A stretch of 64,000 bases of DNA from the human T2T-CHM13v2.0 reference genome, Homo sapiens, in the NCBI RefSeq assembly GCF_009914755.1, contig NC_060945.1, one strand, 5' to 3'. How positions within the stretch are numbered: the first letter of the stretch is position 1; every line of letters begins with the position of its first letter. Of the stretch, positions 34,965 through 37,039 are shown one piece after another. The notes under the pieces are model-generated. The model was not told the DNA's origin, ran no database searches, and saw only the letters and a program-made list of their open reading frames with translations. The position numbers and the translations under genes were made by a program.

Positions 34965-35170
34965 ATGATCTTTATTGTCTATACATCTAGAGCTTATATT
35001 TTTTATTTTTATTTTTTATCTTATTTTCTTTCATATGGAGTCTCACTCTGTCACCCAGGCTGGAGTGCAGAAGTACAATCATAACTCAAGGCAGCCTTAA
35101 ACTCCTGGACTCAGGAGATCTTCTCACCTAAGCCTCCAAAGTAGCTGAGACTACAGTTGTATGCCACCAT
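34965..35170 (-). repeat. Inverted duplicate of 36720-36924 (AluJ right arm, tail and unique flank)
   Basis: Reverse complement matches 36720-36924 with about 5 substitutions and 1 indel. Confidence 0.95.
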
Positions 35171-35541
35171 GATGATTACTTGAGGAAGAGAATGAAATTG
35201 TGGGCGTTGGTCAAAGAAGAATTTACCTTAATTTTTAATGTTTTAATATGTAAAAGGCACTATGTTATTCTATTAACCTTAAGTGTTGAATTGTAGAAGT
35301 TAGAACAAAATCTGAATTTGAGTGGGGCCCTAAACAGAATTAAGATTGATAGATGTGTAGGTCAGCCCTGGGACATCACGACTCAGCTGATCAGATGATA
35401 ATAGAAATATCTACAAAAGAGATAGGAACCTGATTTTTTGGCAGAAAGCAAATTTCATGACTCAGGAGGGCCTCTTGGGTTTTGAACCTAAAAACTCTTG
35501 AGGCAGCTGTCCATTAAAACCTATTTGAAAGACAACTTGCT

Positions 35542-35757
35542 CTGGCTAACACAGTGAAATCCCATCTCTACTAAAAAAATGCAAAAATTAACCAGGTGTG
35601 GTGGCACACACCTGTAGTCCCAGCTACTTGGGAGACTGAGGCAGGAGAATTGCTTGAACCCAGGAGGCAGAGGTTGCAGTGGGCCGAGATCTCGCCATTG
35701 CACTCCAGCCTGGGTGACAGAGCAAGACTCCACCTCAAAAAAAAAAAAAAAAAAAAA
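35542..35757 (+). mobile_element. Alu (Sc8-like), 5'-truncated
   Basis: Starts at CTGGCTAACACAG; TSD AAAGACAACTTGCT / AAAGGCAACTTGCT. Confidence 0.95.
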
Positions 35758-35907
35758 AAAGGCAACTTGCTACCTTGTTACTGGCAGTTCTTTTTTCAAA
35801 ATTGTCCCAACTCCCAACTACCATAAGATAACAGAAGATTCTGAAGCCACTAATATTAATCACATCTTCTGTGTATGCCCAAAAAAAGACATTCAAAAGA
35901 AGGGGAT

Positions 35908-36202
35908 GGCCAGACGCAGTGGCTCACACCTGTAATCCCATCACTTTGGGAGGCTGAGGCGGGTGGATCACGAGGTCAGGAGTTCAAGACCAGTCTGGCC
36001 AAGATGGTGAAACCTCGTCTCCACTAAAAATACAAAAATTAGCTGGGCGTGGTGGAAGGTGCCTGTAATCCCAGCTACTCAGGAGGCTGAGACAGAGAAT
36101 TGCTTGAACCTGGGGGGCAGAGGTTGCAGTGAGCCGAGATCGTGCCACTGCACTCCAGCCTGGGTGACAAGAACGAGACTCCATCTCAAAAAAAAAAAAA
36201 AA
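35908..36202 (+). mobile_element. Alu (AluSg-like)
   Basis: GATCACGAGGTCAGGAGTTC; TSD AAAAGAAGGGGA at 35895 and 36203. Confidence 0.95.
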
Positions 36203-36573
36203 AAAAGAAGGGGACAACAGAAACACGGTAGATTACTCATAAATTTGGAAAGGTTATCCCATGAGATAACAACATGGCTTCCATTGGTGTTATGTAAGCA
36301 CTAGAATTCCCTCTCAGGAAAGGTTAAGCAGGTTGACTGGATTACTGATAGGAATGTAGGCCATGTTGCTATTTGGAAATCAACTGCAATTCACCTTGCA
36401 GACAGTAAAACCTTAAAGGAAGAAGGTAAGGACAAATTTACCTATAGGCAGTTAAAAACTATAAACTGGGCAGAAGAAGACATGAGTTCCAGACTTCATG
36501 AGGTGACATTTGGAAATTTACAGATTTTGGGGCTATCGCCAGGGTCTTTGCTCTATGGTCAAGAAAATAAACC

Positions 36574-36891
36574 TTCCAGGCACGGTTGCTCATGTCCGTT
36601 ATCCCACCTCTTTGGGAGGCCAAAGTGGGATGATTTCTTGAGCCTAGGAGTTCAAGGACAGCCTGGCCAACATAGCAAGACCCTGTCTCTATAAAATAAT
36701 AATAATAAATTAGCCAAGTATGGTGGCATACAACTGTAGTCTCAGCTACTTTGGAGGCTTAGGTGAGAAGATCTCTTGAGTCCAGGAGTTTAAGTCTGCC
36801 TTGAGTTATGAATGTACTTCTGCACTCCAGCCTGGGTGACAGAGTGAGACTCCATCTGAAAGAAAATAAGATAAAAAATAAAAAGAAAAAA
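36574..36891 (+). mobile_element. AluJ-like, diverged
   Basis: CTTGAGCCTAGGAGTTC and CAACATAGCAAGACCCTG J-type diagnostics. Confidence 0.9.
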
Positions 36892-37039
36892 TTAAGCTCT
36901 AGATGTATAGACAATAAAGATCATCCCTGTATAAAGTAATCAGTTATGAAAATCTCTGTGGGAATTAAAGGAAGAATTAAAGTGGGCTATGTGGATCCAC
37001 ACCAAAAAAAATAAAACACAGTTCCCTGCTTAGTGGGTA

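What the first reader, a model, noticed from the sequence alone, without database searches (positions are those of the whole stretch)
34965..36924. Near-identical ~205-bp inverted duplication of an old AluJ arm plus unique flank, 1.55 kb apart
Seen: 34965-35170 is the reverse complement of 36720-36924 with about 5 substitutions and 1 indel (~97%). The copies share the private mutations of this diverged AluJ and extend ~33 bp beyond the Alu tail into unique DNA (AAGCTCTAGATGTATAGACAATAAAGATCAT). The left copy has no TSD or new poly-A. Inference: it arose by DNA-level local template switching, not retrotransposition. Recombination between the arms would invert the spacer and move the AluJ left arm onto the other copy, making this a candidate micro-inversion. 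If transcribed, the arms would form a long, near-perfect duplex.
Basis: partly seen in the sequence, partly recalled or inferred. Interest (0 to 1): 0.7.

Follow-up and report, generated by a model that had tools for sequence, protein, structure and literature searches.

The report
Old local inverted Alu-arm duplication
In a gene-free stretch of human chromosome 21, a 206-base piece of an old Alu repeat and its flank sits back-to-front 1.5 kb from a 97% identical twin, likely the scar of a DNA-copying slip millions of years ago and probably an ordinary, neutral event.

Summary
34965-35170 is the reverse complement of 36720-36924, with 5 substitutions and 1 indel in 206 columns (97.1%); the next-best genomic match is 82%. 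The copies share 25 departures from other Alu arms and 32 bp of non-Alu flank. The four polarisable differences split 2:2 between the copies, so they have aged apart: about 12 My (4-28) at an assumed rate. The left junctions carry 5- and 2-bp microhomology, a 9-bp piece matching DNA just outside the donor (empirical p 0.001-0.009), a 7-bp direct repeat and two TA palindromes. There is no poly-A. Best reading: a local inverted templated insertion made by microhomology-mediated template switching, a common known class. A second case lies 308 kb away. Main rival: the spacer was itself inverted in the same event, which gives the same present sequence; a human-macaque inversion list has no entry here. 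A present-day toggling inversion is unlikely: the longest perfect tract is 56 bp and two human catalogues list nothing here. No transcript is annotated, so the duplex idea is hypothetical. Primate orthologues and human haplotypes could not be read directly.

The parts
34965..35170 (-). Left copy (inferred new copy): right arm of an old Alu, its A-rich tail and 32 bp of non-Alu flank, in reverse orientation
   Evidence: 97.09% to rc of 36720-36924; no left-arm remnant beside it
36720..36924 (+). Right copy (inferred donor), continuous with the left arm and linker of its Alu
36575..36895 (+).
   Evidence: (two SRP-like halves at 36575-36691 and 36713-36860); ends approximate
36893..36924 (+). 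32-bp non-Alu flank, copied without change to 34965-34996; holds AATAAA at 36913, 6 nt from the end of the copy
34934..34949 (.). Perfect 16-bp TA-core palindrome just outside the left copy
34951..34970 (.). Perfect 20-bp TA-core palindrome across the outer junction of the left copy; the longest palindrome at any of the 13 TA runs of the window
34946..34952 (+). 7-bp direct repeat TACTTGA, second copy at 35177-35183; possible duplicated acceptor site
   Evidence: empirical p 0.02-0.17
35169..35173 (+). 5-bp ATGAT, direct repeat of 34965-34969; candidate microhomology (5 bp at entry, 2 bp at exit)
35171..35181 (+). Inner-junction bases: 35171-35176 = rc of 36920-36925, and 35173-35181 = rc of 36934-36942
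   Evidence: the 9-bp match has empirical p 0.001-0.009
36934..36942 (+). 9-bp partner of 35173-35181, 9 bp outside the donor arm, in non-mirror order
35171..36719 (.). 1549-bp spacer: single-copy DNA, a 5'-truncated Alu (about 35540-35760), a full Alu (35905-36216) and the left arm of the donor Alu

Best explanation
The left arm is a 97% identical reverse copy of the Alu arm and flank 1.55 kb to its right, likely inserted millions of years ago by a microhomology-guided template switch during DNA replication or repair, and probably neutral. Shown: the identity, the shared private changes, the copied non-Alu flank, the lack of poly-A, the junction microhomologies and the 2:2 split of later changes. 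Inferred: a 3' end stalled or broke at a TA-rich, hairpin-prone site near 34965. It annealed by about 5 bp (ATGAT) to the opposite strand at 36920-36924, copied 206 nt into the Alu, probably picked up a few more bases from just outside the donor end, and rejoined its own site with a 3-7 bp overlap (net gain 204-231 bp). The spacer kept its orientation. In the four-point notation this is the single-inverted-repeat outcome. The copies have since drifted apart; that the event is fixed in humans and shared with other apes is inferred from divergence, not seen.
For: Identity and uniqueness. 25 shared departures in 143 nt. The right copy is continuous with a whole Alu; the left has no left-arm remnant. 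Two of four polarisable differences lie in the donor, so copying errors alone cannot explain them; 5/205 = 2.4% (95% CI 0.8-5.6%), 12 My (4-28) at an assumed 1e-9 per site per year; P(5 or more | 1 My) = 7e-5. The odd small repeats and palindromes cluster at the two junctions of the left copy. Inverted duplications are the commonest non-MEI inversion class in 1,019 long-read genomes (277 events, median 284 bp), mostly with 1-15 bp microhomology (PMC12350158, passages). Template switches in ape genomes mostly yield single inverted repeats and favour AT-rich DNA (PMC7954356, passages). A second local inverted duplication (268 nt, 93%, 534-bp spacer, nearly single-copy elsewhere) turned up in 20 tiles of 10 kb nearby. 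No human-macaque inversion is listed at this place.
Against: No outgroup or pre-insertion allele was read, so the acceptor site is reconstructed, not seen. The simplest two-switch reading leaves the 9-bp match unexplained, and the multi-switch reading needs 12 nt of filler (34953-34964) with no exact template found. The 9-bp match in non-mirror order is also what staggered breaks at both ends of an inversion would leave (PMC1885836, passages). The 7-bp direct repeat is not clearly beyond chance (p 0.02-0.17). The junction p-values are post hoc (3 comparisons at 4 window sizes). The enzymes cannot be told from sequence. Gene conversion between the arms would make the event older than the estimate.
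Confidence: 0.72

Rival explanations
1. The spacer was itself inverted in the event: staggered breaks or two template switches turned the 1.55-kb segment round and duplicated 206 bp at one breakpoint and 9 bp at the other. The left copy would then be the original site, and the present sequence would be the same.
For: The order of pieces (left: arm, then 9-mer; right: arm, then 9-mer) is non-mirror, as expected for inverted duplications at both breakpoints (model in PMC1885836, passages). The 9-mer is beyond chance (p 0.001-0.009). The TA palindrome could be the fragile site.
Against: The list of 1972 human-macaque inversions (51 bp to 69 Mb) has many 0.4-4 kb entries on chr21 but none between hg38 23,075,958 and 23,878,335; the predicted position is about 23,748,900-23,750,860. 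It leaves the 7-bp direct repeat and 9 bases between arm and 9-mer unexplained. Strand skews are uninformative. The list may miss events, and the hg38 offset was measured 2.9 Mb away.
Confidence: 0.15
2. Whatever its origin, the pair now serves as a substrate for recombination, so the spacer is inverted in some living humans or apes.
For: 97% identity at 1.55 kb. A 940-bp inversion between 256-bp SINE repeats of only 85.6% identity is common on the same chromosome (HsInv0045, MAF 0.46). Exchange through matches under 50 bp is reported for close repeats (PMC2583991, passages).
Against: Longest perfect tract 56 bp, against a 20-fold drop from 232 to 134 bp in mouse cells. Repeats behind the 24 NAHR inversions of PMC6748972 are 654 bp to 24.2 kb. 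HsInv0045 is classed as non-homologous in origin (10.1101/501981, passages). Only 6 of 319 inverted SD pairs picked blind were polymorphic (PMC13629690, sections). Nothing is listed here in two human catalogues, which are insensitive to such small events.
Confidence: 0.05
3. The copy came through RNA: a read-through transcript ending near the AATAAA in the flank was reverse-transcribed and inserted nearby (3' transduction or RNA-templated repair).
For: AATAAA lies in the copied flank. A 7-bp direct repeat could be a target-site duplication. The copy is 5'-truncated in Alu sense.
Against: No poly-A. The signal is 6 nt from the end, not 10-30 (PMC5110952, passages). The site is not TTTT/A. Landing 1.55 kb from the source is improbable for a diffusible RNA (inference).
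Confidence: 0.05
4. A pre-existing Alu at the left site was overwritten by gene conversion from the right Alu.
For: Both arms are mostly Alu and lie close together.
Against: 32 bp of non-Alu flank is shared, both ends are abrupt, and no Alu remnant lies beyond either end.
Confidence: 0.02
5. The left copy is an assembly artefact.
For: Only one assembly was seen.
Against: Six differences, split between the copies, and structured junctions are not what a false duplication in a haploid assembly gives (inference).
Confidence: 0.01

Closest known systems
Short local inverted duplications in human long-read SV sets (PMC12350158: 277 events, median 284 bp)
   Same: Inverted copy of a few hundred bases, junction microhomology of a few bases, inferred replicative origin.
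   Different: Those are polymorphic; this one has 2.4% divergence and is probably old and fixed (not seen directly).
Four-point template-switch events (model as described in PMC7954356)
   Same: Switch to the opposite strand and back, leaving one inverted repeat, in AT-rich DNA.
   Different: The short-range search covers tens to hundreds of bases; here the template lies about 1.75-1.95 kb away and the tract is 206 nt.
Inversions flanked by inverted duplications from staggered breaks (PMC1885836, Drosophila)
   Same: Inverted duplicates of formerly single-copy DNA at both ends of a segment; two duplicated pieces in non-mirror order.
   Different: Inversion of the spacer is not shown here, and no human-macaque inversion is listed at this place.
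HsInv0045 (chr21, 940 bp between 256/257-bp SINE inverted repeats, MAF 0.46)
   Same: Same scale, same chromosome, SINE inverted arms.
   Different: Its arms are 85.6% identical, both orientations are seen in people, and it is classed as non-homologous in origin; none of that is shown here.
Class 2 templated sequence insertions (PMC5110952)
   Same: Templated patch without poly-A, with microhomology and filler.
   Different: Those come from distant loci and are proposed to pass through RNA; this source is local.

Membership tests
Short local inverted duplication (templated insertion) | Inverted copy of nearby sequence, hundreds of bases long | tested here: met
   206 bp, 1549-bp spacer
Short local inverted duplication (templated insertion) | Copy closer to its local source than to any other genomic copy | tested here: met
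   97% against 82% for the next hit, 40 of 4254 candidates scored; 25 shared departures
Short local inverted duplication (templated insertion) | Microhomology of 1-15 bp or templated filler at the junctions | tested here: met
   5 bp and 2 bp under the simplest reading; 9-bp donor-adjacent match; rests on a reconstructed acceptor site
Short local inverted duplication (templated insertion) | An ancestral or alternative allele without the copy and with the spacer in the same orientation | not testable with these tools
   No primate genomes or human haplotypes held; only indirect absence from a human-macaque inversion list
Inverted-repeat (NAHR) polymorphic inversion | Inverted repeats over 90% identical at both ends | tested here: met
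   97.09%
Inverted-repeat (NAHR) polymorphic inversion | Repeats long enough, with long uninterrupted identity | tested here: not met
   206 bp, longest perfect tract 56 bp; 654 bp-24.2 kb in PMC6748972, though candidates down to 140 bp are catalogued
Inverted-repeat (NAHR) polymorphic inversion | Both orientations seen among individuals | tested here: inconclusive
   Not among 9 chr21 rows of PMC10150506 Table S1 nor in PMC13629690 tables; catalogues are not a direct test
Staggered-break inversion with flanking duplications | Inverted duplications from both breakpoints in non-mirror order | tested here: inconclusive
   206-bp and 9-bp pieces fit the order, but templated filler explains the 9 bp too
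Staggered-break inversion with flanking duplications | Spacer reversed in an outgroup | tested here: inconclusive
   No entry at the predicted position among 1972 human-macaque inversions; orthologues not read
L1-driven retrotransposition, 3' transduction or class 1 TSIP | New poly-A tail beyond the copied flank | tested here: not met
   Longest T run 2 in the 40 nt outside the left copy
L1-driven retrotransposition, 3' transduction or class 1 TSIP | Poly-A signal 10-30 nt upstream of the end | tested here: not met
   AATAAA ends 6 nt before the end of the copy
L1-driven retrotransposition, 3' transduction or class 1 TSIP | Target-site duplication at a TTTT/A site | tested here: inconclusive
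   5- and 7-bp direct repeats exist (p 0.02-0.17 for the 7-mer), not at a TTTT/A site and set off by filler
Alu-Alu gene conversion | An independent Alu at the acceptor site, with its own sequence beyond the converted tract | tested here: not met
   No remnant; the shared tract runs 32 bp into non-Alu DNA
AluJ subfamily | Diagnostic positions against subfamily consensus sequences | not testable with these tools
   No repeat library; old age shown by at most 83% identity to 32 other arms and no CpG

The most novel reading that the evidence does not exclude
The pair marks an uncatalogued 1.55-kb inversion of the ape lineage made by staggered breaks at a TA palindrome, with inverted duplications of 206 and 9 bp at its two ends, and the new arms may let the segment flip again in living humans or apes.
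Probability: 0.15. Interest if true: 0.35.

Novelty: new member of a known kind. Interest (0 to 1): 0.14.

Why it matters
Little, as it stands: one more old local inverted duplication in a gene desert, with no annotated gene or element. Its value is as a clean worked example. The diverged Alu marks donor and copy, and the junctions keep microhomology, templated filler and TA palindromes. If the inversion history holds, it would be a small primate case of an inversion that made its own flanking inverted repeats. It also shows that an inverted insertion and an inversion with duplication cannot be told apart without an outgroup.

Tried and rejected
Old repeats spanning the junctions, to fix the ancestral adjacency: searches with the four flanks found only a 52-bp hit on chr12 (34700-34751) and a 126-bp hit on chr7 (37064-37188); neither reaches a junction. 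Strand skews of the spacer against its flanks: within noise (TA -0.10, GC +0.11; chunk SD 0.09 and 0.11). Rfam: only sub-threshold SRP and Alu-derived miRNA-like hits. Folding of the left arm with its junctions: z -1.4, nothing special. Gibbon Strand-seq map: threshold above 7 kb, cannot see this. Macaque Strand-seq supplement could not be read. The supplement of the 1,019-genome paper gave no position match for 22106-22108 or 23748-23749, but the file is cut, so this is no test. chr21_inv11 of the human-macaque list lies about 127 kb from the predicted position and was rejected as this locus. The L035 inverted pair (109 nt, 96%) was dropped as a comparator because its family background is 93-95%. 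Literature search for the two flanking LOC names found 0 papers. Ten searches in all showed no paper on this locus; subscription journals and bioRxiv supplements were not covered.

Full report
OBSERVATION. 34965-35170 aligns to the reverse complement of 36720-36924 over 206 columns with 5 substitutions and 1 indel, 97.09%, 1549 bp apart. It is the most identical of 332 self-matches of 100 nt or more in the window. In the whole genome the partner scores 97% and the next hit 82%, with 40 of 4254 candidates scored. The right copy is the right arm and tail of a whole old Alu (about 36575-36895) plus 32 bp of non-Alu flank; the left copy has no left arm beside it. In the 143-nt Alu body both copies share 25 departures from the majority of 32 other arms, whose best identity to the right copy is 83%. 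One is therefore a direct copy of the other.

AGE. Four differences in the Alu body can be polarised against the other arms: two are derived in the left copy (36776, 36856) and two in the right (36795, 36812). Error-prone copying would load only the new copy, so the pair has aged. Divergence is 5/205 = 2.4% (95% CI 0.8-5.6%), with no CpG in either arm. That is 12 My (4-28) at 1e-9 per site per year and 24 My (8-56) at 0.5e-9; the rates are my assumption. An age of 1 My has P = 7e-5 at the faster rate. The event is thus likely fixed in humans and shared with other apes, which I could not see directly. The longest uninterrupted identity is 56 bp.

JUNCTIONS. Outside the left copy stand two perfect TA-core palindromes, 34934-34949 (16 bp) and 34951-34970 (20 bp); the second is the longest at any of the 13 TA runs in the window. 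ATGAT opens the left copy (34965) and recurs at its other end (35169). TACTTGA occurs at 34946 and 35177. The bases after the inner end match the donor's outer boundary: 35171-35176 is the reverse complement of 36920-36925, and 35173-35181 of 36934-36942. Against 4000 random pairs of unmasked sites per window size (20-40 nt), the 9-bp inverted match has p 0.001-0.009, the 7-bp direct match p 0.02-0.17, and the outer-outer comparison p 0.24-0.74; these tests are post hoc. There is no poly-A, and the AATAAA in the flank ends 6 nt before the end of the copy, against 10-30 nt for L1-made insertions (PMC5110952, passages).

TWO HISTORIES, ONE SEQUENCE. The junction inside the Alu (36719/36720) is ancestral. 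Either both junctions of the left copy are new (inverted insertion), or the outer left junction is ancestral and the spacer was turned round while the arm was duplicated (inversion with duplication). The 9-bp piece fits both: filler templated from beside the donor, or the second duplication of a staggered-break inversion (PMC1885836, passages). No old repeat spans a junction and strand skews are within noise. The indirect outgroup test favours insertion. I fixed the T2T-hg38 offset at HsInv0045, where both outer repeat ends give 1,641,936, which puts this locus near hg38 chr21:23,748,900-23,750,860 if no large indel lies in the 2.9 Mb between. The list of 1972 human-macaque inversions, 51 bp to 69 Mb (PMC11092980, section 9 part 1), has no number starting 23747-23751. 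The 16 chr21 rows I saw (32 of 67 occurrences of 'chr21', hg38 15.0-25.5 Mb in order) skip from 23,075,958 to 23,878,335. Such lists can miss events, so I leave the inversion history 0.15.

MECHANISM. Most likely a 3' end stalled or broke at the TA-rich site, annealed by about 5 bp to the opposite strand at the donor's outer end, copied 206 nt, and returned to its own site with a small overlap; the net gain is 204 or 231 bp by reading. This is inferred. It matches a common class: 277 inverted duplications, median 284 bp, mostly with 1-15 bp microhomology, in 1,019 genomes (PMC12350158, passages). Template switches in apes mostly give single inverted repeats in AT-rich DNA (PMC7954356, passages), and short fold-back and templated inverted insertions arise at breaks in yeast (PMC11724301, passages). 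The enzymes cannot be named from sequence.

HOW ORDINARY. In 20 nearby tiles of 10 kb plus the window (264 kb), 65 inverted pairs of 100 nt or more lie within 5 kb of each other; 4 reach 90% and 2 reach 95%, this pair being the best. One is a second local inverted duplication (L020, 268 nt, 93%, 534-bp spacer, nearly single-copy elsewhere). One (L035) is uninformative because its family background is 93-95%. The fourth, in the window, looks like two ends of a young repeat family (label recalled). A 455-nt direct pair at 97% has mostly 68-75% relatives over long alignments (up to 88% over short ones; L031). The sample is small and local, but such duplications are plainly not rare here. Self-alignment catalogues count over 600,000 inverted pairs of 200 bp or more at 80% or more in T2T (PMC11794170, passages).

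INVERSION AND DUPLEX IDEAS. For: 97% identity at short range; HsInv0045 shows a common 940-bp inversion between 256-bp SINE arms only 85.6% alike (PMC13629690 supplement search); close repeats can exchange through matches under 50 bp (PMC2583991, passages). Against: the 56-bp perfect tract; NAHR inversions in PMC6748972 have repeats of 654 bp or more (passages); HsInv0045 is classed as non-homologous (10.1101/501981, passages); 6 of 319 blind inverted SD pairs were polymorphic (PMC13629690, sections 4, 7, 13). None of the 9 chr21 rows in PMC10150506 Table S1 lies here (supplement searches), and none of 13 numbers starting 2372-2377 in the PMC13629690 tables is a chr21 coordinate. Hairpins are held to be rare above 100-bp spacers (PMC3215922, passages). 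An RNA across both arms would pair strongly (-361 against -165 to -175 kcal/mol), but the annotation shows no gene or element in the window.

LIMITS. No primate genome, human haplotype or RNA data could be read. The supplement of PMC7605249 was unreadable, that of PMC12350158 is cut, and PMC9712629 starts above 7 kb (passages); any of the unseen tables could list this locus. Ten literature searches showed no paper on it.

VERDICT. Observation confirmed; interpretation partly supported. A new member of a known kind, probably neutral. Interest 0.14.

Noticed in passing
L020:8845-9112 and 9647-9914 (G000:C21:21798845-21799914): A second local inverted duplication, 268 nt, 93%, 534-bp spacer, nearly single-copy elsewhere; one arm sits between a GT run and a TA-rich run.
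   Followed up: partly
L031:6964-7417 and 8556-9010: Direct pair of 455 nt at 97%, 1138 bp apart, in a repeat whose other copies are mostly 68-75% alike; likely a local direct duplication.
   Followed up: partly
L025:1770-2060 and 3615-3906: Direct non-Alu pair of 292 nt at 94%, 1554 bp apart, ending in a TA-rich run.
   Followed up: no
L035:5164-5272 and 5455-5563: Inverted pair of 109 nt at 96%, 182 bp apart, inside a repeat family with 93-95% background (looks like an LTR family; label recalled).
   Followed up: partly
window 19115-19452: AT-rich minisatellite with overlapping perfect palindromes of up to 30 bp; a likely cruciform-prone tract.
   Followed up: no
window 42047-42204 / 44246-44404 and 47976-48095 / 49695-49813: Non-Alu pairs at 95% (direct) and 92% (inverted); they look like 3' ends of young L1 copies (label recalled), not local duplications.
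   Followed up: no
window 37064-37188: 74% match to a chr7 site; looks like an old MaLR-type LTR starting near 37040 (label recalled).
   Followed up: no
window 35529-35772: 5'-truncated Alu in the spacer with a 13-bp flanking direct repeat (one mismatch), read from the sequence.
   Followed up: no
L037:277-532 and 1473-1729: Arms of the known inversion HsInv0045, 85.6% identical; they give the T2T-hg38 offset of 1,641,936.
   Followed up: yes
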